The notes beneath the pieces were generated by a model. That model had not been told where the DNA came from, searched no databases, and worked only from the letters and a program-made list of their open reading frames with translations. From Paenibacillus sp. (lineage in GTDB: Bacteria > Bacillota > Bacilli > Paenibacillales > Paenibacillaceae): 64,000 nt of DNA. Below are positions 2,564-61,531 of this stretch, piece by piece; position 1 is the first letter of the stretch, and every line of letters starts with the position of its first letter. The stretch spans positions 18,197-82,196 of the forward strand of contig JBCNLJ010000010.1 in NCBI GenBank assembly GCA_039595515.1, given 5' to 3'. The translations under genes and the position numbers were made by a program.

Positions 2564-2618
2564 AGGGCGGAGTTTCGAACACTAATAATGTGGCTCGAAT
2601 CGATCTATCTGTTTGTGT

Positions 2619-2666
2619 AAACCCTCAATAGCAGGCAGTTCGTTTGCCTGCTGTTGAGGGTTTTTT
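2619..2666 (+). terminator. Rho-independent terminator after GH43 gene
   Basis: AAACCCTCAATAGCAGGCA / TGCCTGCTGTTGAGGGTTT stem followed by a T tract. Confidence 0.85.
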
Positions 2667-2800
2667 GACGTATTTTTGACGTATACAAGCAAGAACATAT
2701 TCAAGTTTTATAAGGCAGAAACACTAGGAAAATGCTAGGGGAAAACTAAAGGAGAAAGCTTGCTATCATAAATAATGCCATATAAGGTAAATTTAAAGCG

Positions 2801-2829
2801 TTGAAATTCCTAGTAAACCGATATACTAT
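2801..2829 (+). promoter_or_regulatory. Putative sigmaA promoter of ABC operon overlapping a CymR-like box
   Basis: TTGAAA-17bp-TACTAT. The overlapping AATTCCTAGTAAACCGATA fits the left part of the B. subtilis CymR consensus as I recall it; the right end does not match. Confidence 0.4.
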
Positions 2830-2879
2830 ACAGTATATAAAGACAAGATAGCAACTATTACAGATGGGGGATAAGGAAA

Positions 2880-4487
2880 ATGAGTACGAAGTTTAAAGGC
2901 TTAATCGTTGCAATGCTGTTTACGGTATTACTGGCAGCTTGCTCAGGCAATAGTGGTGGCTCTACAGCAGCAACGTCAACCGGCTCGTCCACAGCAGATA
3001 GTGGAACACCGAAGGACGGGGGCAGTCTTATTATCAGTGTAGCTGCAGACCCGGTTATTTTGAATCCGCTCTATGCAGGCGATCGTGTCAGTCTAACGAT
3101 TGATCAGGCGCTCTATGCACCACTTTTTCAAGTGAACAATGGCAAAAAGACATTTTATCTGGCTGATAGTCTGGAGCCTTCCGCTGACCAACTTACATAC
3201 ACGCTTAAACTGAAAAAGAACCTGACCTGGCATGACGGACAGAAGCTGACGGCTGACGATGTGGTGTTCACGATCAACAGCATTCTGGACGAGAAGCAAA
3301 ACAGCTTCCTGCGCGCTGGCTTTATTATTAACAATAAGCCCGTTCAGGTATCCAAAGTGGACGATTTGACCGTAGCGTTCAAGCTACCTCAGGTTAGCCC
3401 GGCATTCGAAGCTTCACTCGTACAGGTATCGCCAATTCCAAAGCATATTTTCGAAGGTGAAACCGATCTGGAAAAGAGCAGCAAAAACAACAATCCAATC
3501 GGTTCTGGCCCATTCAAATTTAAAGAGTACAAAACAGGCGAATATGTCACACTGGATCGATTTGATCAATATTTTGGTGGCAAGCCACATCTGGATAGCG
3601 TTACTTACCGTATTGCGAAGGATGCGAACGCCGCTAATCTGGCATTGCAAAATGGAGAGATTAATGTGCAGTATCTCGATCCGCGCGATGTAGCCACAAT
3701 TCAGGCAACCGGCAATTTTGATATACAATCCTATAGCGAGGGCCGCCTTGCGTATCTGCTGTTTAACGAGAAAAGCGATACCGGTGTGCTTGCTAAAAAA
3801 GAAGTTCGTCAGGCAATCGGCTATGCGCTGAATCGTCAGGAGCTGATTCAGACGGCATATACGTCGGATCAATATGCCGACCCGGCGCATTCATTTGAAA
3901 CACCGGATGGCTTGTATCAGACAAATGATGTACCGACCTACGACAATGATGCAGCCAAAGCGAAGCAGATTCTCGCTCAGCAGGGCATTAGCAATCTGAA
4001 GCTACGTATGATCGTACAATCTGGCAACAAAGTTCAGGAAGCCGTCTCGCTGTATGTACAGCAAAAGCTGAAAGAGATCGGCATCGATGTGGAGCTGCAA
4101 AATATGGATTCGACTGCATTCGGTCAGAAATTTGTAGATGACAAGGCTACAGATTATGAGCTGGCACTGAGCGGCTACATTATGGGCTATGACCCGGATG
4201 CGTATCGTATTTTGTTCACAACCGGTTCTTCCTCCAACTATACGCATTATTCAAATCCGCAGGTGGATAAGCTGTTTGAACAGGGTGCAGGTGAAGGCGA
4301 TTCGACCAAGCGTGCCGAGATTTACAAGCAACTGCAAACGATCATTGCAGAGGATGCGCCAATCTACCCGATTGCGTATACCAAAACGATCGTAGCCATT
4401 TCTAAAAATTACGGTGGTCTGGATCAAGCTGTACTGAAGCCAGTCGTTATTTTCGAAGACCTGTCCAAAATTTATCAAAAACAATAA
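2880..4487 (+). CDS. ABC transporter substrate-binding lipoprotein, family 5 (OppA/DppA/NikA-like)
   Basis: Lipobox LLAAC, WHDGQKLTADDVVFT, PIGSGPFKF. Confidence 0.92.
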   Translation: MSTKFKGLIVAMLFTVLLAACSGNSGGSTAATSTGSSTADSGTPKDGGSLIISVAADPVILNPLYAGDRVSLTIDQALYAPLFQVNNGKKTFYLADSLEPSADQLTYTLKLKKNLTWHDGQKLTADDVVFTINSILDEKQNSFLRAGFIINNKPVQVSKVDDLTVAFKLPQVSPAFEASLVQVSPIPKHIFEGETDLEKSSKNNNPIGSGPFKFKEYKTGEYVTLDRFDQYFGGKPHLDSVTYRIAKDANAANLALQNGEINVQYLDPRDVATIQATGNFDIQSYSEGRLAYLLFNEKSDTGVLAKKEVRQAIGYALNRQELIQTAYTSDQYADPAHSFETPDGLYQTNDVPTYDNDAAKAKQILAQQGISNLKLRMIVQSGNKVQEAVSLYVQQKLKEIGIDVELQNMDSTAFGQKFVDDKATDYELALSGYIMGYDPDAYRILFTTGSSSNYTHYSNPQVDKLFEQGAGEGDSTKRAEIYKQLQTIIAEDAPIYPIAYTKTIVAISKNYGGLDQAVLKPVVIFEDLSKIYQKQ

Positions 4488-4563
4488 AGTCCATGTTCAT
4501 AATGAAAGCAGCAGATAAGCCGGTTTCCCGGCTTATTTGTTGTGGTGAAGGGAGCTGCGGAAC

Positions 4564-5514
4564 ATGAGGCAAATGATTATCCGCCGATTGCTGCAAACGA
4601 TACCGTTGTTGTTTTTTGTTTCTATTGTCTGCTTTGCGATGATCAAGCTGGCACCGGGTGATCCGGTGCTGTCGTTTGTAACGCCAAATATGCATGCTGA
4701 TGATATTGAGCGTATTCGTCATAATCTCGGTCTGGATCGCCCTGCATATGTACAATATGGACTCTGGCTAAAGCAGCTATTACAAGGCGACCTGGGCTAT
4801 TCGCTGGTGAATCACCAGCCGGTTCTCGGTCAGATCGTGGAGCGCTTGCCTGCAACAGCAGGGCTGATGGGAAGCGCGATTGCGATTGCTGTGCTACTGG
4901 CGATTCCACTCGGCTTGATTGCAGGGGCGAATCGTAATCGCTGGATAGATAAAATGATTAATTTGATCGCTTATATTGGTATCTCTGTGCCGCTTTTCTG
5001 GCTGGCGATTCTACTCATCTATATTTTTGCTATCAAGCTCTCGCTGCTACCGAGCATGGGGATGCGTACGATTGGCGAGGAATCAGTCGGTGATGTGATT
5101 CGTCATGGCATTTTGCCCTGCTCGGTGCTGGCATTTGGCTTTTTGGCAGGATATGTGCGATATATCCGTTCCAGTACGATCGGTCAGCTCAAGGAGGATT
5201 ATGTGCAGATTCAATATGCATTTGGCTCCAATAAATGGACGATTCTGTTTCGCCATGTGATCAAGCATGTACTGTTACCGATCATTACGCTACTTGGCAT
5301 GTCGATGGGTGATCTGGTCGCAGGGGCAATTGTAACGGAAACGGTATTTTCGTGGCCGGGTATCGGCTCGCTGGGAATGACTGCGGTTCGAGGAATGGAT
5401 TACCCGATCATCATGGGGATTACGCTGTTCTCGTCCTTGCTGCTCATTCTGGGCAATCTGGCAGCAGATATTTTATACGCGATCGTCGATCCGCGTATGA
5501 AGGCAAAGGGGTGA
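4564..5514 (+). CDS. Peptide/nickel ABC transporter permease (OppB/DppB-like)
   Basis: APGDPV N-terminus, EAA-like loop, ETVFSWPGIG, DILYAIVDPR. Confidence 0.92.
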   Translation: MRQMIIRRLLQTIPLLFFVSIVCFAMIKLAPGDPVLSFVTPNMHADDIERIRHNLGLDRPAYVQYGLWLKQLLQGDLGYSLVNHQPVLGQIVERLPATAGLMGSAIAIAVLLAIPLGLIAGANRNRWIDKMINLIAYIGISVPLFWLAILLIYIFAIKLSLLPSMGMRTIGEESVGDVIRHGILPCSVLAFGFLAGYVRYIRSSTIGQLKEDYVQIQYAFGSNKWTILFRHVIKHVLLPIITLLGMSMGDLVAGAIVTETVFSWPGIGSLGMTAVRGMDYPIIMGITLFSSLLLILGNLAADILYAIVDPRMKAKG

Positions 5515-5518
5515 CGGA

Positions 5519-6364
5519 ATGAATCGTAGTAAATGGAACCACTTGAAACGGGAGCTTCTAAGCAGCAAGCCAGGTCTGGCTGCCCTGTTTGTGCTAATCG
5601 TGCTAACATTGGGCGCAATTTTTGCCTTTTTGTCCCCTTATGATCCGAATTTGATGAATGCGGGCAAGCCGTTTAGCACGCCGGATGGTGCGCACTGGTT
5701 TGGTACGGACGATTATGGACGTGATTATTTTGCGCGTGCACTGTATGGCGGCCGGGTATCGCTGCTTGTCGGTTTTGCTTCGATGATTATGGCTACCGCG
5801 ATTGGCGTAGCGATCGGTGTGATTAGCGGTTATTTTGGCGGCTGGCTGGATAGCTTGCTTATGCGTGCGCTGGACGTTATTTCTTCGATTCCATCGTTTC
5901 TCGTATTGCTGCTGCTCAGTGTGTTTTTGAAGCCGAGTGTCGGCAATATTATTGTTATTATTGCGCTGCTCATGTGGATGAATGTCGCACGGATCGTACG
6001 TGCAGAGACGATGAGCATCAAAGAACGTGAATATGTGCTGTATGCACGCGCCTCCGGTCAAGGTGGCGGTGGGATGATTGTACATCATATTTTGCCGGGC
6101 CTGATTCCGATCATTATTGTCAGTGCGACGAACAATATCGCTTCAGCGATTATGATGGAATCGTCATTGAGCTTTCTCGGATTTGGCGTACAGCCGCCTA
6201 ATGCAACATGGGGCAGTATGCTGAACAGTGCGCAGGGTTATATCGCTCAAGCGCCTTATATGGCGCTATTTCCGGGCTTGCTTATTTTACTGACTGTACT
6301 GAGCTTTAATGTGCTGGGCGATATTTTGCGAGTCGGTTTGGAACCGAAGCTGGATCGAAGATAG
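5519..6364 (+). CDS. Peptide/nickel ABC transporter permease (OppC/DppC-like)
   Basis: HWFGTDDYGRD, LSFLGFGVQPP, WGSML, FNVLGD. Confidence 0.92.
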   Translation: MNRSKWNHLKRELLSSKPGLAALFVLIVLTLGAIFAFLSPYDPNLMNAGKPFSTPDGAHWFGTDDYGRDYFARALYGGRVSLLVGFASMIMATAIGVAIGVISGYFGGWLDSLLMRALDVISSIPSFLVLLLLSVFLKPSVGNIIVIIALLMWMNVARIVRAETMSIKEREYVLYARASGQGGGGMIVHHILPGLIPIIIVSATNNIASAIMMESSLSFLGFGVQPPNATWGSMLNSAQGYIAQAPYMALFPGLLILLTVLSFNVLGDILRVGLEPKLDRR

Positions 6365-54750: not shown

Positions 54751-56718
54751 ATGAACATAATGACTGTGGAATCACTCGCCAAAAGCTTTGGCGATAAAAT
54801 ACTGTTTCAAGACGCCTCATTTGGCATGGAAGATCGCGACAAGATCGGTATTATCGGTGTCAACGGAACAGGTAAGTCCACGTTTCTGAAAATTATCGCA
54901 GGACTGGAGGAGCCAGACAGCGGACAGGTCGTGATCGGCAATAGTGTGCGTGTACGTTATCTGGCACAAAATCCACCATATGATCCGAACGCAACCGTAT
55001 TGCGTCAGGTGTTCGATGGTGGCGGTGAAGAGCTGCAAGCGGTCAGCGCTTATATGAGCGTTATGGATCAATTGGAGCAGCAGCCGGATGATCCGGCAGT
55101 ACAGCAGGAGCTTGTACGTATCAGTCAGGACATGGATCGACTGGATGCGTGGTCGCTGGAAAGTGAAGCGAAAAACGTACTGTCCAAGCTCGGCATTACC
55201 CGTTATGATGCGCTGATGGGTACATTATCCGGCGGTCAGCGTAAGCGTGTAGCACTCGCCACAGCGCTTATTCAGCCAGCAGAGCTGCTGATTCTGGATG
55301 AGCCAACCAACCATATTGACCATGATTCGGTTACGTGGTTGGAACAATATTTGCAAAAGCGGCGCGGCGCCTTGCTGATGATTACGCATGATCGCTATTT
55401 CCTTGATCGTGTAGCAACCGTCATGCTGGAGCTGGATGGCGGACGACTGTTCCGTTATGAAGCGAACTATACACGCTATCTGGAGCTAAAAGCAGACCGT
55501 GAGGAGCGCGAAGCAGCAGCAGAGGACAAGCGGCAAAATCTGCTACGTCGTGAGCTGGCATGGATTCGCCGCGGCGCTAAAGCCCGTACGACCAAGCAAA
55601 AGGCGAGAATTGATCGCTTTGAGCAGCTACAAAATGATGCGCCTGGACGTAAAGGGGATCAACTGGAAGTATCGACCGTTTCCTCTCGTCTCGGTAAACA
55701 GATTATTGAGCTGGAGGATGTGTCGCTCACACTGGGTGGACATGAACTCATTCACGAGCTGACGTACCATGCCGTACCTGGTGATCGCATCGGTATCGTT
55801 GGTCCAAACGGACGCGGCAAATCGACGCTGCTTAACCTGATTTCCGGACGAATCGAGCCAACGTCTGGACGCATCATTACCGGACAAACGGTCAAATTCG
55901 GTTACTTCACGCAGGAGCATCAGGAAATGGATGAATCGATGCGGGTGATCGAATACATTAAGGAAGCAGCCGAAGTGGTCAAAACATCCGACGGTAGCAG
56001 CATTACTGCCGCGCAGATGCTCGAACGCTTCCTGTTCCCGCCAGCCGCACAATGGACACCGATTGCCAAGCTGTCCGGTGGCGAAAAGCGCAGACTGTAT
56101 CTACTGCGCGTATTGATGAGCGCACCGAATGTGCTGTTGCTCGATGAGCCGACCAATGATCTGGATATTACGACATTGACGGTACTGGAAGACTATTTAG
56201 AGGAATTCCCAGGCGTTGTACTGGTCGTATCTCACGATCGTTATTTCCTGGATCGCACCTGTGAGAAAATATTCGCGCTTGAAGGCGGCGGTGTCGTTAG
56301 CATTCATGCGGGGAACTATAGCGAGTATGAGGAGCGTACAGGCGGACAATCAATGAAGTCCGAGCTATCCGCTGAAGGCAAAGGAGCTGCACAGCCGAAA
56401 GCAGCTACTGCTGCGAGTAACAGTAGTTCCAATGCGAATGAATCAGCAGGCGAAACGAGCAAACGTAGCTCCTCGCGTGACAAGCTCAAGTTCAGTTACA
56501 AGGAACAGCGCGAATACGAGCAGATCGATAGCATGATCGAAGCTGCCGAGCAAAAGCTCGAACGCATTACTACCGAGATGGAAGCCGCATTCAGCGATTC
56601 TGTACGCCTGCAGGAGCTGATGGCAGAGCAAGCCAATGCCGAGCAGGAGCTGGAGCATTTGATGGAGCGCTGGACATATTTGAACGAGCTGGCGGAGAAG
56701 ATCGCGGAGCAGGGGTAA
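54751..56718 (+). CDS. ABC-F ATPase (Uup/YfmR-like) with C-terminal coiled coil
   Basis: Two NBDs (GVNGTGKST/LSGGQ and GPNGRGKST/LSGGE), linker ELAWIRRGAKARTTKQKARI, no TM segments. Confidence 0.92.
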   Translation: MNIMTVESLAKSFGDKILFQDASFGMEDRDKIGIIGVNGTGKSTFLKIIAGLEEPDSGQVVIGNSVRVRYLAQNPPYDPNATVLRQVFDGGGEELQAVSAYMSVMDQLEQQPDDPAVQQELVRISQDMDRLDAWSLESEAKNVLSKLGITRYDALMGTLSGGQRKRVALATALIQPAELLILDEPTNHIDHDSVTWLEQYLQKRRGALLMITHDRYFLDRVATVMLELDGGRLFRYEANYTRYLELKADREEREAAAEDKRQNLLRRELAWIRRGAKARTTKQKARIDRFEQLQNDAPGRKGDQLEVSTVSSRLGKQIIELEDVSLTLGGHELIHELTYHAVPGDRIGIVGPNGRGKSTLLNLISGRIEPTSGRIITGQTVKFGYFTQEHQEMDESMRVIEYIKEAAEVVKTSDGSSITAAQMLERFLFPPAAQWTPIAKLSGGEKRRLYLLRVLMSAPNVLLLDEPTNDLDITTLTVLEDYLEEFPGVVLVVSHDRYFLDRTCEKIFALEGGGVVSIHAGNYSEYEERTGGQSMKSELSAEGKGAAQPKAATAASNSSSNANESAGETSKRSSSRDKLKFSYKEQREYEQIDSMIEAAEQKLERITTEMEAAFSDSVRLQELMAEQANAEQELEHLMERWTYLNELAEKIAEQG

Positions 56719-56775
56719 AGGGTTGTCATTGATGTACGCTAGCGGCAATGAGAAGTGAAGTTATAGAAGTTATAA

Positions 56776-56842
56776 TAAAACTCCCTTTTGGATGGAAACC
56801 CATGTATATAAATGTGGGTGTCCAACGTAAAGGGAGTTTTAT
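56776..56842. terminator. Bidirectional terminator
   Basis: TAAAACTCCCTTT / AAAGGGAGTTTTA. Confidence 0.8.
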
Positions 56843-56960
56843 TTATGATGAAAAGCGAAAAAGAACTCTTAAGTTAACAATAGGTGAGATAATTGTATGC
56901 ACATTTTTTGAGCGTGTAGACGTTTAAACCAAACTGCTGTACACAAATGATTTATAAAAA

Positions 56961-57620
56961 TTATATCGTTGTAATCATAACCGTACCACAATTGACATGT
57001 TGTTCATTAATAACAAGATTATGCTTAGTATGAGTTAACATTAGCGGTTGCGCTCGAAATATAGAAATAGTCGGCATATTCCATTGCTCGGCTTCCGTAA
57101 TATTGACACCCGTGAGTGGTTTACGTGCCACCATGCCTTTGATATGTTGTTGAGTGGTTTGTGCTTGGATAGCAGCCTGTAATGAAGTATCTGCTACATA
57201 GCAAGTATGCAAGCTAATATGCTGAATCTGAGCAATGCCCAAAGAAGAAGCAAAAGCAATTCCTCTTAAAATGGCGCCGCGAAACTGGTGCTGCACTTTA
57301 GACCAAATTTGTGTTGTAATTGCTGATTTCAATTCAATAATATGCAGGCTTGCTTTCGTTCGATCCAATGTATCTGATGCTAGAATGATACCATCTGCAC
57401 ATTTTGGGTTGGTTATATACTTTAAAAAGTCATGATGATTCTCACCGAGTACTTGAATAAATTGCTTGTTTGTGGCATTTGAAAATTCTACCTGTACGCT
57501 GGCTTTACCAGCAGGGTCATTTTCCTCTAAAGTCAGAAATGGAGCATCCAGTATTTTATAGTACTCTTTGTTTATTCGATCTAAATCAAATCCAATCTGA
57601 ATCATCTCGTCACTCCACAT
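56961..57620 (-). CDS. Hypothetical protein with PD-(D/E)XK nuclease-like motif
   Basis: KCADGIIL ... LHIIELKS. Coupled to the upstream ATPase; the start may be ATG 57605, which has GGAG upstream. Confidence 0.65.
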   Translation of the reverse strand: MWSDEMIQIGFDLDRINKEYYKILDAPFLTLEENDPAGKASVQVEFSNATNKQFIQVLGENHHDFLKYITNPKCADGIILASDTLDRTKASLHIIELKSAITTQIWSKVQHQFRGAILRGIAFASSLGIAQIQHISLHTCYVADTSLQAAIQAQTTQQHIKGMVARKPLTGVNITEAEQWNMPTISIFRAQPLMLTHTKHNLVINEQHVNCGTVMITTI

Positions 57621-59034
57621 GATTTTGAATAATATCCGTCTCTTTAATTAATTGCTCAAGTGTATCGTTGAATGTTTTCATTTCGAAGCCGTAAGGTCCT
57701 AATTCAAGCTTTGTGATTACAGTACGATCATCAACATTTTCAAATTGATAGGCGTGCACTAACCCAAGATCGGAGATAATATCCTGTTCACTGTAATTTA
57801 ATTTATCTAAAAGATTATCTTTATCATTTCTTTGCGCTATCGTTAATAAATTATTGATCTGTTGTGCGAGTGTGTCACTATGAGTCGTAATCCAGATTGC
57901 TTTATCTTTATTGACAAGACGGAAAAGGAACCGAGCTATCTTTAACTGCATTTCTGTGTGCAGATGGGCTTCTACTTCTTCAATAATCCATAGGTCAGGA
58001 TCATTATTTGAAGACAGAAAAATAGACAGAGGGGCTAGCTCTGAGATGAGTGATGATGTTACATGTAATGGATAATCTATATCAGAATTGTTAGGTTTAA
58101 AAACAAATTGATTATATTGATCTCTTGCTACTGATCCTTTTAATATTTGCTTATTAAGAAATTCTAGCTCATTTTTGTAAACGAGCTGTTGATTAGAACT
58201 TAAATTATATTTTTGTAAACGAGATAAAAAATTATTTACAGGTAAAGTTAGGCTAGTGCCGGGTAAAGAGTTGTGTATCTTCTCATTTCTTTCGTTAACA
58301 GCAAAATCAAATTGCATTTGATCGTCAAAAATATTTCCTACAATTGCTCTATAGGTTTGCATAAATCCAGTTCTTGAGGCAGGGAAATATATAGGTTGAT
58401 CTAAGTCTTTATAAGAAAATTCTGTGTTATAAAAACCATCATTAATCATAGTAGTCATAACAAAAGTTAAAAATCCTTCAATTACTTTTTGATCATTAGA
58501 TGAGATTAAATGAGATTCATTTTCTTCATATTCAAATATATATGTTTTTTGTTTTGAATCAATTCTGTGTGATTGCAAATTACCACTGGGTATAAATTGA
58601 AATTCTTCTTCGTACAGATCAGATTCCAATTGTCGCTTTAAAATGAAAGGAGCTTTAATAATATTAGTTATTTTAATCTTCTCAAGATGTATGGGGAAGT
58701 TGAAAACTCGCTCTAATAGATCATTTATATTTTTCTGTAAAATAGTATTCAACATATTTAGTAGTATTTTTTGTTTATTTTTATCAATAATAACTTTATC
58801 TGTATCATTGAATTCTTTGTATAATGCTTTTATCAAACTAGGGTAGTTTGGGAGATTTTTAAGATCTTTGCGTATGAAGCGCTCACTCTCAGTTATAATC
58901 CCCCACAATAACATCATCAAATAACTCTTACCTGTATTATTTTTACCAACAAACATCATAAACGGAGATACCGTAATCGTTGCTTCTTTAATACGTCCGA
59001 AATTCTTTACATACAAATCCCATTGATTTCGCAT
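57610..59034 (-). CDS. ABC-type ATPase (AAA_15/AAA_21, OLD/Rad50-like clade)
   Basis: YVKNFGRI, Walker A GKNNTGKS, PASRTG, SSLISEL signature, Walker B WIIEEVEAHLH, H-loop ITTHSD. ATG 59034 follows AAGGAG. Confidence 0.88.
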   Translation of the reverse strand: MRNQWDLYVKNFGRIKEATITVSPFMMFVGKNNTGKSYLMMLLWGIITESERFIRKDLKNLPNYPSLIKALYKEFNDTDKVIIDKNKQKILLNMLNTILQKNINDLLERVFNFPIHLEKIKITNIIKAPFILKRQLESDLYEEEFQFIPSGNLQSHRIDSKQKTYIFEYEENESHLISSNDQKVIEGFLTFVMTTMINDGFYNTEFSYKDLDQPIYFPASRTGFMQTYRAIVGNIFDDQMQFDFAVNERNEKIHNSLPGTSLTLPVNNFLSRLQKYNLSSNQQLVYKNELEFLNKQILKGSVARDQYNQFVFKPNNSDIDYPLHVTSSLISELAPLSIFLSSNNDPDLWIIEEVEAHLHTEMQLKIARFLFRLVNKDKAIWITTHSDTLAQQINNLLTIAQRNDKDNLLDKLNYSEQDIISDLGLVHAYQFENVDDRTVITKLELGPYGFEMKTFNDTLEQLIKETDIIQNHVE

Positions 59035-59297
59035 AATACACTCCTTCTCAGCCAAACTATATCTATTAATATACCTTATTTGTCTACATACATAAAATGC
59101 TATCGAATAAACGTGTAGTTCATCCGATAGCATTCCACCTAATCTTATTACATAGGCTTTCACTATTTAAATTCTTCAATTTGCTCATTAAATATTTTAT
59201 TCAAAAAAAATTCTTTGTTTCTATATAACACAACCATTTCGCTTTCCAAGCGATGGTCGTTATACAATGATTTTAAATAAAACTATCGTAAAATACT

Positions 59298-61362
<2,065 letters not shown>

Positions 61363-61531
61363 ATGTCTCGCTACACACTATACGACGATGGCGCACACTC
61401 TGTCAACTTTTTCCAGAGTGTGCGCCATTATCAGCGTAAAGAGAGACGTTCGAAGTTGTGTTAGCGGATTGCAGCTAGATGGAATACAGCGCTGTATCCA
61501 AATCAATCATGACATCGCCGTCATCCATTGA

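What the first reader, a model, noticed from the sequence alone, without database searches (positions are those of the whole stretch)
56961..59290. AT-rich two-gene island: ABC-type ATPase plus PD-(D/E)XK-like nuclease, a candidate anti-phage system
Seen: translationally coupled genes, by eye about 30% GC against about 50% in the flanking ABC-F and thiC genes, inserted between their terminators. The ATPase has a complete set of ABC motifs and no TM partner; the second ORF has D(G)...E-L-K (CADGIIL..IIELKS). Established: soluble ABC-ATPase plus nuclease pairs underlie PARIS (TOPRIM), Septu (HNH), OLD/Gabija and Lamassu-type defence. Inference: a sensor-effector defence module with a restriction-endonuclease-fold effector, which I cannot match to a named system.
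Basis: partly seen in the sequence, partly recalled or inferred. Interest (0 to 1): 0.75.

Follow-up and report, generated by a model that had tools for sequence, protein, structure and literature searches.

The report
PD-T4-4-like ATPase–nuclease defence islet
A 2.5-kb AT-rich insert between two housekeeping genes of a Paenibacillus carries a soluble ABC-type ATPase and a small restriction-enzyme-like protein; together they are a divergent relative of the known PD-T4-4 anti-phage system, some closely related strains lack the insert, and its presumed sensor segment exists in two very different versions.

Summary
Two tightly coupled minus-strand genes form a 2,455-bp island (56841-59295) with 32% GC, against about 52% in thiC and ABC-F: A at 57610-59034 (474 aa) and B at 56961-57605 (214 aa).

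A matches the PADLOC model PD-T4-4_A over its full length (E 5e-37) and folds as a Rad50/PtuA/AriA-like ABC ATPase. B matches no Pfam, PADLOC or NCBIfam model. It belongs to a family of at least 150 sequence clusters with a conserved D…E-x-K…Q motif. In all 10 cellular loci checked it lies directly downstream of such an ATPase, and it is faintly related to PDC-M47B and PD-T4-4_B.

The best reading is a divergent PD-T4-4/WonAB-type system: an ATPase sensor with a PD-(D/E)xK-like effector.

Two findings are new here:
- Public assemblies of strains with about 98%-identical flanks lack the island. The same 56840→59296 joint appears, with 75-76 other letters in its place.
- Residues 47-325 of A, the inserts between Walker A and the signature motif, occur as two deeply divergent cassettes. 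Both ends of A and all of B stay conserved.

No function was tested. Novelty: new variant of a known kind. Interest: moderate.

The parts
56841..59295 (.). Accessory island (2,455 bp, 32.2% GC) that is present in some strains and absent in others
   Evidence: Contigs of runs X24, X28 and X25, and the major haplotype of X3, join 56840 directly to 59296 with 75-76 unrelated letters in between. Their flanks are about 98% identical to the window.
57610..59034 (-). Gene A: soluble OLD-type ABC ATPase, 474 aa, related to PD-T4-4_A
   Evidence: Pfam AAA_15, E 1.4e-24. PADLOC PD-T4-4_A (PDLC04033), E 4.7e-37, covering profile positions 4-452 of 460. AlphaFold2 model pLDDT 87.6. Foldseek probability 1.0 to the retron I-A ATPase, Rad50, SMC heads, PtuA and AriA. 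Motifs.
58060..58896 (-). Variable cassette inside A (aa 47-325; the two inserts between the Walker A helix and the signature motif), presumed to be the sensing region
   Evidence: Against P. wenxiniae this stretch is 17-57% aa identical (dN 0.33-0.65), while aa 1-46 are 100% and aa 326-474 about 98% identical. X5 and X7 contigs match the window outside about 58074/58398-58881 but match P. wenxiniae at 92% across all of A. X2 carries the window type.
56961..57605 (-). Gene B: 214-aa PD-(D/E)xK-like putative nuclease effector, from a family with no existing model
   Evidence: No Pfam, PADLOC or NCBIfam hit. An exhaustive HMMER search found 152 cluster representatives. E91, K93 and Q107 are invariant; E28, G33, D71, W101 and W175 are kept in at least 90%. 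AlphaFold2 model pLDDT 93.9. hhalign against the PDC-M47B-type protein of an E. faecium plasmid gives probability 84.6%.
57603..57616 (-). Coupling junction: GGAG (57613-57616), A stop TGA (57610-57612), B start ATG (57603-57605)
   Evidence: Read directly from the sequence. Related loci show the same tight spacing.
59041..59047 (-). Ribosome-binding site GAAGGAG, 6 nt upstream of the A start codon
   Evidence: Read directly from the sequence. Identical in P. wenxiniae.
59092..59138 (-). Strong hairpin with a 21-bp stem followed by AUUUUAU, between thiC and gene A. It looks like a terminator or insulator upstream of the island's own promoter.
   Evidence: RNA fold -33.6 kcal/mol, z-score -6.8. 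The P. wenxiniae counterpart folds the same way, with a C-G to G-C exchange in the stem. Function is inferred.
56777..56840 (.). Bidirectional terminator-like hairpin (AAAACTCCCTTT…AAAGGGAGTTTT) downstream of ABC-F. It forms the island's outer border and is retained in island-free strains.
   Evidence: Read from the sequence and conserved in P. wenxiniae. The empty-site joint lies exactly at 56840.

Best explanation
The island encodes a two-component anti-phage system of the PD-T4-4 / PDC-M47 / WonAB type.

Proposed mechanism:
1. A is a soluble OLD/Rad50-like ABC ATPase. It is expected to dimerise head to head around two ATP molecules.
2. Its two inserts (aa 47-213 and 229-320) form the surface that recognises a phage-derived cue.
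3. B is a small PD-(D/E)xK-like nuclease, with predicted catalytic residues E28, D71, E91 and K93, plus Q107. It is made in fixed ratio with A by translational coupling.
4. B is held inactive on the conserved C-terminal part of the A dimer.
5. When the cue is sensed, ATP binding or hydrolysis by A activates or releases B.
6. B then cuts nucleic acid and stops phage replication, probably at the cost of the infected cell.

Basis of each claim:
- Shown here: the gene anatomy, the homology of A, the conserved motif and co-occurrence of B, the accessory (present/absent) status of the island, and the two sensor-cassette types.
- Taken from the literature on relatives: both genes and their catalytic residues are needed for defence; WonAB acts by abortive infection; WonB docks on the WonA C-terminal extensions; EcPD-T4-4 forms a complex.
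- Inferred only: the sensing role of the inserts, the docking of B on A here, the substrate, and any anti-phage activity of this locus.
For: - A matches PD-T4-4_A over its full length (E 4.7e-37), followed by AriA and PDC-M47A.
- The model of A matches defence and Rad50/SMC ABC ATPases with probability 1.0. Walker A, Walker B and the H-loop are intact, with an OLD-type R in the Q-loop position.
- A B-family gene lies directly downstream of the A homologue in all 10 cellular loci inspected (hmmsearch E 1e-26 to 1e-54). The same holds on 6 of 8 viral contigs.
- B conserves D71, E91, K93 and Q107. The order of secondary-structure elements fits a PD-(D/E)xK core: beta 72-78, beta 84-95, helix 98-122, beta 126-138.
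- The catalytic core of B aligns in register with genuine PD-T4-4_B (KSCD…D-x-K…Q). Over 115 columns it aligns with a PDC-M47B-type protein at probability 84.6%.
- The island is AT-rich, like every related pair, and strains with about 98%-identical flanks lack it.
- The conserved parts are under strong purifying selection (dN 0-0.016 at dS 0.5-0.7), while the inserts are dimorphic.
- Distant relatives lie in a defence island (SLFN/AlbA_2, methylase/EcoRII-N, RelB-ParE, SNF2+HATPase+HNH+Dcm/Vsr) and next to BrxA, integrases and a relaxase.
- Literature: PD-T4-4 protects E. coli (PMC9519451). WonAB needs both genes, the ATPase motifs and the nuclease lysine, and acts by abortive infection. EcPD-T4-4 forms higher-order complexes.
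Against: - No experiment bears on this locus.
- B fails every existing model, including PD-T4-4_B, PDC-M47B and WonB (hhalign probability 6%).
- The profile-profile match of B to genuine PD-T4-4_B covers only 42 columns, at probability 14-28%.
- Foldseek found no significant structural neighbour for B in the PDB or BFVD (best E 0.06 and 3e-3). PD-(D/E)xK proteins appear only among the weak hits.
- The six Bacillales relatives are solitary and not in defence islands.
- Purified EcPD-T4-4 cut none of the DNAs tested, so the substrate and mode of activation are open even for the named relative.
Confidence: 0.72

Rival explanations
1. Same two proteins, different logic: an ATP-dependent restriction-like enzyme that gives direct immunity. 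The A-B complex would recognise and cut incoming foreign DNA, for example modified or structurally unusual DNA, without killing the cell.
For: In Vassallo et al., 7 of 11 systems with PD-(D/E)xK-like components gave direct immunity rather than abortive infection. No methylase is adjacent, as with type IV enzymes. Several PD-(D/E)xK nuclease-NTPase complexes cut DNA directly in vitro.
Against: Purified EcPD-T4-4 was inactive on all host, plasmid and phage DNAs tested. The best-studied relative, WonAB, acts by lysis-independent abortive infection. Nothing at this locus discriminates between the two modes.
Confidence: 0.2
2. The effector targets RNA or tRNA rather than DNA, as in PARIS, PrrC/RloC and the OLD 'tRNase' report. 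B would be a PD-(D/E)xK-fold ribonuclease.
For: EcPD-T4-4 was inactive on every DNA substrate, and the authors suggest RNA or tRNA targets or a missing trigger. AriA is the second-best PADLOC family for A. The PD-(D/E)xK fold can cut RNA, as stated in the preprint passage.
Against: There is no positive evidence. B has no similarity to any known RNase family.
Confidence: 0.2
3. A selfish toxin-antitoxin or addiction-type module. B would be a toxic nuclease and A its neutraliser, so the pair persists by post-segregational killing rather than by defending against phage.
For: Pfam AAA_21 is described as 'putative AbiEii toxin, Type IV TA system' and matches A. The pair is a tightly coupled cassette found on small and conjugative plasmids, next to other TA genes. 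Loss of WonA ATPase activity destabilises WonB.
Against: The island is lost cleanly in natural strains, which argues against strong addiction. The named relatives confer phage resistance (PMC9519451). The dimorphic insert region is better explained by selection from outside than by a closed toxin-antidote pair. The two roles do not exclude each other.
Confidence: 0.08
4. A housekeeping DNA-repair or chromosome-maintenance pair: a RecN/Rad50/SMC-like ATPase with a repair nuclease.
For: The structural neighbours of A include Rad50, SMC and RecN heads.
Against: The island is absent from closely related strains. It is 15-20 GC points below the genome. Relatives lie at unrelated sites in other genera. 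A lacks a long coiled coil. The best sequence matches are all defence ATPases.
Confidence: 0.02

Closest known systems
PD-T4-4 (E. coli; Vassallo et al. 2022; PADLOC and DefenseFinder models PD-T4-4_A/B)
   Same: Two-gene operon in the order ATPase then a small protein of about 200 aa, tightly coupled and AT-rich. A matches the PD-T4-4_A model over its full length. B has the same size as PD-T4-4_B, and the same core pattern K-x-C-(A)-D … hhh-(D/E)-x-K-S … Q aligns in register. A genuine PD-T4-4 was recovered for comparison on plasmid NZ_CP051743.1 (A E 3e-123, B E 1e-43).
   Different: A scores only 126 bits, against 364-410 bits for a genuine member. By BLASTP it is alignable with E. coli PD-T4-4_A only over the C-terminal 123 residues, at 33% identity. 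B is not recognised by any PD-T4-4_B model, and profile-profile similarity is limited to 42 core columns. The catalytic triplet is E-L-K here and D-(L/Q)-K there.
PDC-M47 (unvalidated 'phage defence candidate' in PADLOC-DB v2.0.0)
   Same: A matches PDC-M47A at E 2e-23. The B family aligns over 115 columns with the PDC-M47B-type partner on an E. faecium conjugative plasmid (hhalign probability 84.6%, E 7e-6). About 6 of 145 B-family representatives weakly hit PDC-M47B models.
   Different: Window B itself does not hit PDC-M47B. No paper in the searched library mentions PDC-M47, so there is no functional information.
WonAB of the Vibrio cholerae WASA-1 prophage, and the 'OLD-ABC ATPase + novel REase' operons (PMC12137116)
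   Same: An OLD-type ABC ATPase (PASR in the Q-loop position, EEPEAH-type Walker B, THS H-loop) paired with a small variant PD-(D/E)xK protein carrying C-D … h-E-L-K … Q. The published description of variation in the Insert 1/2 regions fits the variable cassette found here.
   Different: Similarity of A to WonA-family ATPases is limited to the motifs. B against a WonB/novel-REase alignment gives hhalign probability 6%. WonB-type proteins are shorter (about 140-170 aa). No Paenibacillaceae appear in the stored part of their homologue tables.
PARIS (AriA-AriB), Septu / retron I-A (PtuA-PtuB), Gabija and OLD
   Same: The same clade of defence ABC ATPases. AriA is the second-best PADLOC family for A. 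PtuA, the retron I-A ATPase and AriA are top structural neighbours. All follow a sensor-ATPase plus nuclease logic.
   Different: Their effectors are TOPRIM (AriB, OLD, GajA) or HNH (PtuB) domains, either fused or encoded separately. Here the effector is a separate PD-(D/E)xK-like protein, and neither protein has a TOPRIM or HNH domain.

Membership tests
PD-T4-4 | The ATPase component matches the PD-T4-4_A profile over its full length | tested here: met
   PDLC04033: E 4.7e-37, protein residues 51-510 of the long ORF against profile positions 4-452 of 460. This is the best PADLOC family for all A homologues checked.
PD-T4-4 | The second component matches the PD-T4-4_B profile | tested here: not met
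   Window B has no PADLOC hit at E<=1. Only 4 of 145 family representatives reach E 1e-2 to 9e-5. hhalign of the B family against four genuine PD-T4-4_B sequences plus one PDC-M47B-type sequence (alignment A6) gives probability 14%, with only the 42-column catalytic core aligned in register.
PD-T4-4 | Two-gene operon, ATPase first, with a small partner of about 200 aa directly downstream | tested here: met
   Gap of 4 nt in the window. The genuine systems on plasmids have the same layout.
PD-T4-4 | Confers resistance to phage | not testable with these tools
   Needs cloning and phage assays.
PDC-M47 (PADLOC candidate) | Both components match the PDC-M47A and PDC-M47B profiles | tested here: inconclusive
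   A matches PDC-M47A at E 2.1e-23. B has no hit. The B-family profile against an E. faecium PDC-M47B-type protein gives probability 84.6%.
WonAB / OLD-ABC ATPase + novel REase | The ATPase and the nuclease are recognisably homologous to WonA and WonB (MacSyFinder models of PMC12137116) | tested here: not met
   BLASTP of A against two WonA-family ATPases finds only motif-level segments. B family against a 7-sequence WonB/novel-REase alignment gives hhalign probability 6%. The authors' own models were not available.
WonAB / OLD-ABC ATPase + novel REase | OLD-type deviations in the ABC motifs (arginine in the Q-loop position and others) | tested here: met
   PASR at 218-221, where P218, S220 and R221 are invariant and A219 is kept in at least 90% of sequences. 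IIEEVEAHLH and TTHS are also present. Compare R182 of WonA.
ABC ATPase superfamily (Rad50/SMC/OLD-like clade) | Walker A, signature, Walker B and H-loop in order, plus the ABC head fold | tested here: met
   Motifs. Foldseek probability 1.0 to Rad50, SMC, PtuA, AriA and the retron I-A ATPase. PDB sequence hits to ABCE1 over the signature-to-Walker B region.
PD-(D/E)xK nuclease superfamily (for B) | Conserved D … (D/E)-x-K catalytic motif on consecutive beta strands | tested here: met
   D71 lies at the start of strand 72-78, and E91 and K93 lie in strand 84-95. E91 and K93 are invariant and D71 is kept in at least 90% of 69 sequences.
PD-(D/E)xK nuclease superfamily (for B) | Significant structural similarity to a known restriction-endonuclease-like fold | tested here: inconclusive
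   The model is confident (pLDDT 93.9), but Foldseek gives no hit at E<=1e-3 in the PDB or BFVD. HamA, NucC, SgrAI, BsmI, Can2, cap-snatching endonucleases and UL24 appear only among the weak hits.
PD-(D/E)xK nuclease superfamily (for B) | Metal-dependent nuclease activity | not testable with these tools
   Needs biochemistry.
PARIS / Gabija / OLD / Septu | TOPRIM (AriB, GajA, OLD) or HNH (PtuB) effector | tested here: not met
   Neither A nor B has a TOPRIM or HNH match in Pfam or PADLOC.

The most novel reading that the evidence does not exclude
The central ~280 residues of the ATPase (Inserts 1 and 2) may be an exchangeable specificity cassette.
- Strains with about 98%-identical flanks carry either of two cassettes that share only 17-57% amino-acid identity.
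- Both cassettes are framed by the same Walker-A and signature/Walker-B/C-terminal modules and the same nuclease.
- Other strains have no island at all.

The site would then be a polymorphic immune locus, comparable to hsdS or to allelic series of NLR receptors. Recombination anchored in the conserved ends would re-target a fixed ATPase-nuclease chassis to different phage cues. In addition, the B family would be a previously unmodelled effector family that current defence finders miss.
Probability: 0.4. Interest if true: 0.6.

Novelty: new variant of a known kind. Interest (0 to 1): 0.42.

Why it matters
- It exposes a blind spot in defence annotation. A whole clade of PD-T4-4_A-like ATPases is paired with an effector family that no Pfam, PADLOC or NCBIfam model recognises. 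The clade includes hundreds of hits for A and at least 150 50%-identity clusters for B, spanning Bacillales, gut Clostridia, Bacteroidales and prophages. Such systems therefore go uncalled.
- The locus offers a natural experiment. Closely related strains provide an empty site and two very different 'sensor' cassettes on an otherwise conserved chassis. That is the material needed to test what the inserts of OLD-type ABC ATPases sense, which is still unknown for PD-T4-4 and WonAB.
- If the pair proves inactive, it is simply another hypothetical accessory operon.

Tried and rejected
- The word-index homologue search for B found only the P. wenxiniae orthologue. Repeating it with the family profile gave just 27 hits and no named organism of use. 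The exhaustive HMMER search was needed to find the family.
- The search for related loci with the B alignments failed because no stretch was conserved enough. The single genome-contig scan, run with B alone, returned only P. wenxiniae. A broad survey of species genomes for empty sites was therefore not possible, and I used public read-set contigs instead.
- tblastn of A against the plasmid and phage collections gave few, distant hits. It did lead to a genuine PD-T4-4 and to a PDC-M47-type pair.
- Searches of the PDB by sequence and by fold did not place B.
- I first read the read-set data as three or four cassette types. Laying the same contigs on P. wenxiniae showed that X5 and X7 carry the wenxiniae type at 92% identity, so only two types are documented.
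- The low-coverage runs X4, X6, X8 and X9 added nothing decisive.
- An 11-bp inverted repeat at the island ends is too short and AT-rich to call terminal repeats. No integrase, transposase or target-site duplication was found.
- No sigma-70-like promoter for A could be assigned with confidence.
- The 59-aa plus-strand ORF at 56748-56927 overlaps the terminator hairpin, and I take it to be spurious.
Full report
**Anatomy**

The region holds two minus-strand ORFs. Gene A most likely starts at ATG 59034. That start lies 6 nt after a GAAGGAG ribosome-binding site, homologues begin there, and so does the PADLOC profile alignment. It ends at TGA 57610-57612, giving 474 aa. The longer GTG ORF listed mechanically is not supported.

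Gene B most likely starts at ATG 57605, after a GGAG that lies inside the end of A, and runs to 56961, giving 214 aa. All homologues begin M-I-x-I-G. The 4-nt gap between the genes recurs, as a gap of 1-5 nt or an overlap, in ten related loci.

| Segment | GC content |
|---|---|
| Gene A | 30.5% |
| Gene B | 38.0% |
| Island | 32.2% (sliding minimum 24%) |
| thiC | 53.4% |
| ABC-F | 52.0% |
| Whole window | 47.0% |

**Gene A**

Pfam places A in AAA_15/AAA_21. In PADLOC the best family is PD-T4-4_A (E 4.7e-37, nearly the whole profile), followed by AriA and PDC-M47A.

The ABC motifs are present in order, but they are of the OLD type:
- Walker A is GKNNTGKS (K36).
- PASR at 218-221 stands in the Q-loop position.
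- The signature is degenerate (TSS, 326-328).
- Walker B is IIEEVE (350-355).
- The H-loop is TTHS (383-386).

An AlphaFold2 model (pLDDT 87.6) matches the retron I-A ATPase, Rad50, SMC heads, Septu PtuA and PARIS AriA with probability 1.0. By sequence, the PDB yields only ABCE1-type signature/Walker B matches. There is no TOPRIM or HNH domain, no transmembrane domain, and no membrane partner gene nearby.

**Gene B**

B has no hit in Pfam, PADLOC or NCBIfam. The word-index search found only one orthologue. An exhaustive HMMER scan found 152 cluster representatives, nearly all 185-215 aa long.

In an alignment of 69 members, E91, K93 and Q107 are invariant. E28, G33, A70, D71, W101, G110 and W175 are kept in at least 90%. 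The consensus is KCADG…LHIxELK…W…QFxGA.

The AlphaFold2 model is confident (pLDDT 93.9). It puts D71 at the start of one strand, E91 and K93 in the next, then a long helix carrying Q107, then another strand. That order fits a PD-(D/E)xK core.

Foldseek gave no significant neighbour in the PDB or BFVD. PD-(D/E)xK proteins (HamA, NucC, SgrAI, BsmI, Can2, cap-snatching endonucleases, UL24) appear only among the weak hits. The nuclease assignment therefore rests on the motif, the topology and the family relations described next.

**Relation to named systems**

The literature describes PD-T4-4 as an ABC/P-loop ATPase plus a PD-(D/E)xK nuclease. It places PD-T4-4 beside WonAB and the 'OLD-ABC ATPase + novel REase' operons.

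For comparison I recovered a genuine PD-T4-4 on E. coli plasmid NZ_CP051743.1 (A E 3e-123, B E 1e-43). I also recovered a PD-T4-4_A/PDC-M47B-type pair on an E. faecium plasmid, and three further PD-T4-4_B homologues.

| B-family profile compared with | hhalign probability | Aligned region |
|---|---|---|
| E. faecium PDC-M47B-type protein | 84.6% | 115 columns |
| Genuine PD-T4-4_B | 14-28% | 42-column catalytic core only (KSCD…D-x-K…Q), in register |
| WonB / novel-REase proteins | 6% | not significant |

About 10 of 145 B-family representatives weakly hit PD-T4-4_B or PDC-M47B models. A resembles WonA-family ATPases only at the motifs.

The pair therefore has the architecture of PD-T4-4 and an ATPase of that family. 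Its effector belongs to a distinct sister family that has no model. PADLOC-type tools, which need both components, would not call the system. The same is true of every relative checked.

**Co-occurrence and context**

In all 10 cellular loci inspected, the gene directly downstream of the A homologue belongs to the B family (hmmsearch E 1e-26 to 1e-54). Those loci come from P. wenxiniae, P. chartarius, two other Paenibacillus, Saccharibacillus, Fredinandcohnia and Brevibacillus, plus three metagenomic or genomic contigs. On IMG/VR viral contigs, 6 of 8 full-length A relatives are also followed by a B-family gene. All pairs have lower GC than their flanks, by 5-23 points.

The Bacillales copies are solitary two-gene insertions among unrelated housekeeping genes. 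More distant copies lie in two other settings:
- One sits in a defence island with SLFN/AlbA_2, a methylase with EcoRII-N, RelB-ParE, and SNF2+HATPase+HNH+Dcm/Vsr.
- One sits beside BrxA, integrases, transposases and a relaxase.

**Presence and absence of the island**

Public read-set contigs show the island is not fixed:
- A 24.5-kb contig (X24), a 14.2-kb contig (X28) and a contig of X25 match the window on both sides. They join 56840 to 59296 with 75-76 unrelated letters in place of the 2,455 bp.
- X23 has depth 0 across the island.
- X3 holds the empty form at depth 33.7 beside the island at depth 16.3.
- The flanks differ from the window by about 2%.
- One coded organism includes both island-bearing (X5) and island-free (X28, X23) samples.

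The borders are 2 nt after the thiC stop codon on one side, and the conserved terminator hairpin downstream of ABC-F on the other.

P. wenxiniae carries the island at the same site. The conserved parts show synonymous divergence similar to that of the flanks: dS 0.48-0.72 against 0.60-0.73. The island is therefore old at this locus. The direction of change (loss, or re-acquisition through recombination in the flanks) is unresolved.

**A dimorphic cassette in A**

Comparing the window with P. wenxiniae:

| Segment | aa identity | Divergence |
|---|---|---|
| ThiC | 95% | dN about 0.025 |
| ABC-F | 95% | dN about 0.025 |
| B | 88% | dN 0.058 |
| A, aa 1-46 | 100% | dN 0-0.016 for the two conserved ends together |
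| A, aa 326-474 | about 98% | see row above |
| A, aa 47-325 | 17-57% | dN 0.33-0.65; dS saturated |

The divergent stretch spans the inserts between the Walker A helix and the signature motif. Within it, only the PASR block stays conserved.

Contigs X5 and X7 have window-like flanks at about 98% identity. They do not align with the window between about 58074/58398 and 58881, yet they align with P. wenxiniae across all of A and B at 92% without gaps. X2 carries the window type at 98.5%. X3 contains both types.

Two deeply divergent cassettes therefore segregate on the same chassis. The breakpoints fall at the edges of the conserved ATPase modules. This points to recombinational replacement, or to an old balanced polymorphism, of the part expected to contact a trigger. 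That expectation is an inference. It is consistent with the published remark that relatives differ in the Insert 1/2 regions.

**Mechanism**

By analogy with relatives, A is the ATP-driven sensor and switch, and B is the nuclease effector. Published work supports this analogy:
- WonAB needs both genes, the ATPase motifs and the nuclease lysine.
- WonAB acts by abortive infection.
- WonB is predicted to dock on the WonA C-terminal extensions, and it is lost when the ATPase is inactivated.
- EcPD-T4-4 forms higher-order complexes, but it cut none of the DNAs tested.

The joint conservation of the C-terminal third of A and of B at this locus fits a conserved A-B interface, but that too is an inference. 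The substrate (DNA, or RNA/tRNA), the trigger, and whether immunity is abortive or direct all remain open.

A strong hairpin with a U-tract (59092-59138) lies between thiC and A. It is conserved in P. wenxiniae with a compensatory pair. It probably insulates the island from thiC read-through, which implies the island has its own promoter. I could not place that promoter.

A run guessed to be RNA holds short contigs from inside A at 99% identity or better. This is a weak hint that the gene is transcribed.

**Verdict**

The defence interpretation is reasonable and now rests on homology, but the claim that no named system matches is wrong. The locus is a divergent variant of the PD-T4-4 / PDC-M47 / WonAB kind, with an effector family that has no model. 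What it adds is the natural polymorphism: an empty site plus two sensor cassettes. Interest is moderate. Nothing here is experimental evidence of function.

Noticed in passing
window 61264-61367 (-): A TPP riboswitch (Rfam RF00059, 83.7 bits) lies directly upstream of thiC. The real ThiC protein is about 588 aa (start near 61064), not the 657-aa ORF listed mechanically.
   Followed up: partly
window 59092-59138 (-): A very stable hairpin with a 21-bp stem (-33.6 kcal/mol, z -6.8) followed by AUUUUAU lies 55-100 nt upstream of gene A. It is conserved in P. wenxiniae with a C-G to G-C exchange. It could be a terminator/insulator or a regulatory element of the island.
   Followed up: partly
window 56835-56845 and 59274-59284: An 11-bp inverted repeat (AGTTTTATTTA / TAAATAAAACT) lies near the two island borders, with a second 9-bp one at 56852-56860 / 59237-59245. 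Both are AT-rich and may be chance. No recombinase gene or target duplication was seen.
   Followed up: partly
window 56748-56927 (+): A 59-aa ORF overlaps the ABC-F terminator hairpin and the island border. It is probably not a gene.
   Followed up: no
L001/L002 about 2600-5900 (P. wenxiniae), against window about 61300-61530: P. wenxiniae has an extra block between the M42 peptidase gene and thiC. It holds an RCC1/WD40-like gene, a duplicated fragment of the ABC-F C-terminus (87% identical to window 56176-56717) and a fragment of the M42 peptidase. This is a local rearrangement next to the island locus.
   Followed up: no
run X3 laid on window 56300-59800: One sample labelled as a single organism holds three haplotypes of this locus: the empty site (depth about 34), the island with the window-type cassette (about 6.5), and the island with the other cassette (about 10). 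It is a mixed culture or population.
   Followed up: partly
L004 7427-7927 (Paenibacillus sp. KS-LC4): The B-family partner is truncated to 166 aa and lacks the C-terminal ~45 residues. It may be a decaying copy.
   Followed up: no
L015 8616-8843; L016 9744-9944; L017 3938-4138: In the distant Clostridia/gut relatives, a small HTH_26 gene sits directly upstream of the ATPase. This recalls the regulator upstream of wonAB. No such gene exists in the window or in the Bacillales loci.
   Followed up: no
run X10 laid on window 58069-59098: A run guessed to be RNA, from a different labelled organism, contains short contigs from inside gene A at 99% identity or better. They could be transcripts, or DNA carry-over from an associated bacterium.
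   Followed up: no
L012, L006 (4.3-4.8 kb ColE1-type plasmids of Klebsiella and E. coli): Genuine PD-T4-4 pairs make up most of the cargo of very small non-mobilizable plasmids. They also occur on IncX1 and conjugative plasmids next to recombinase genes.
   Followed up: no
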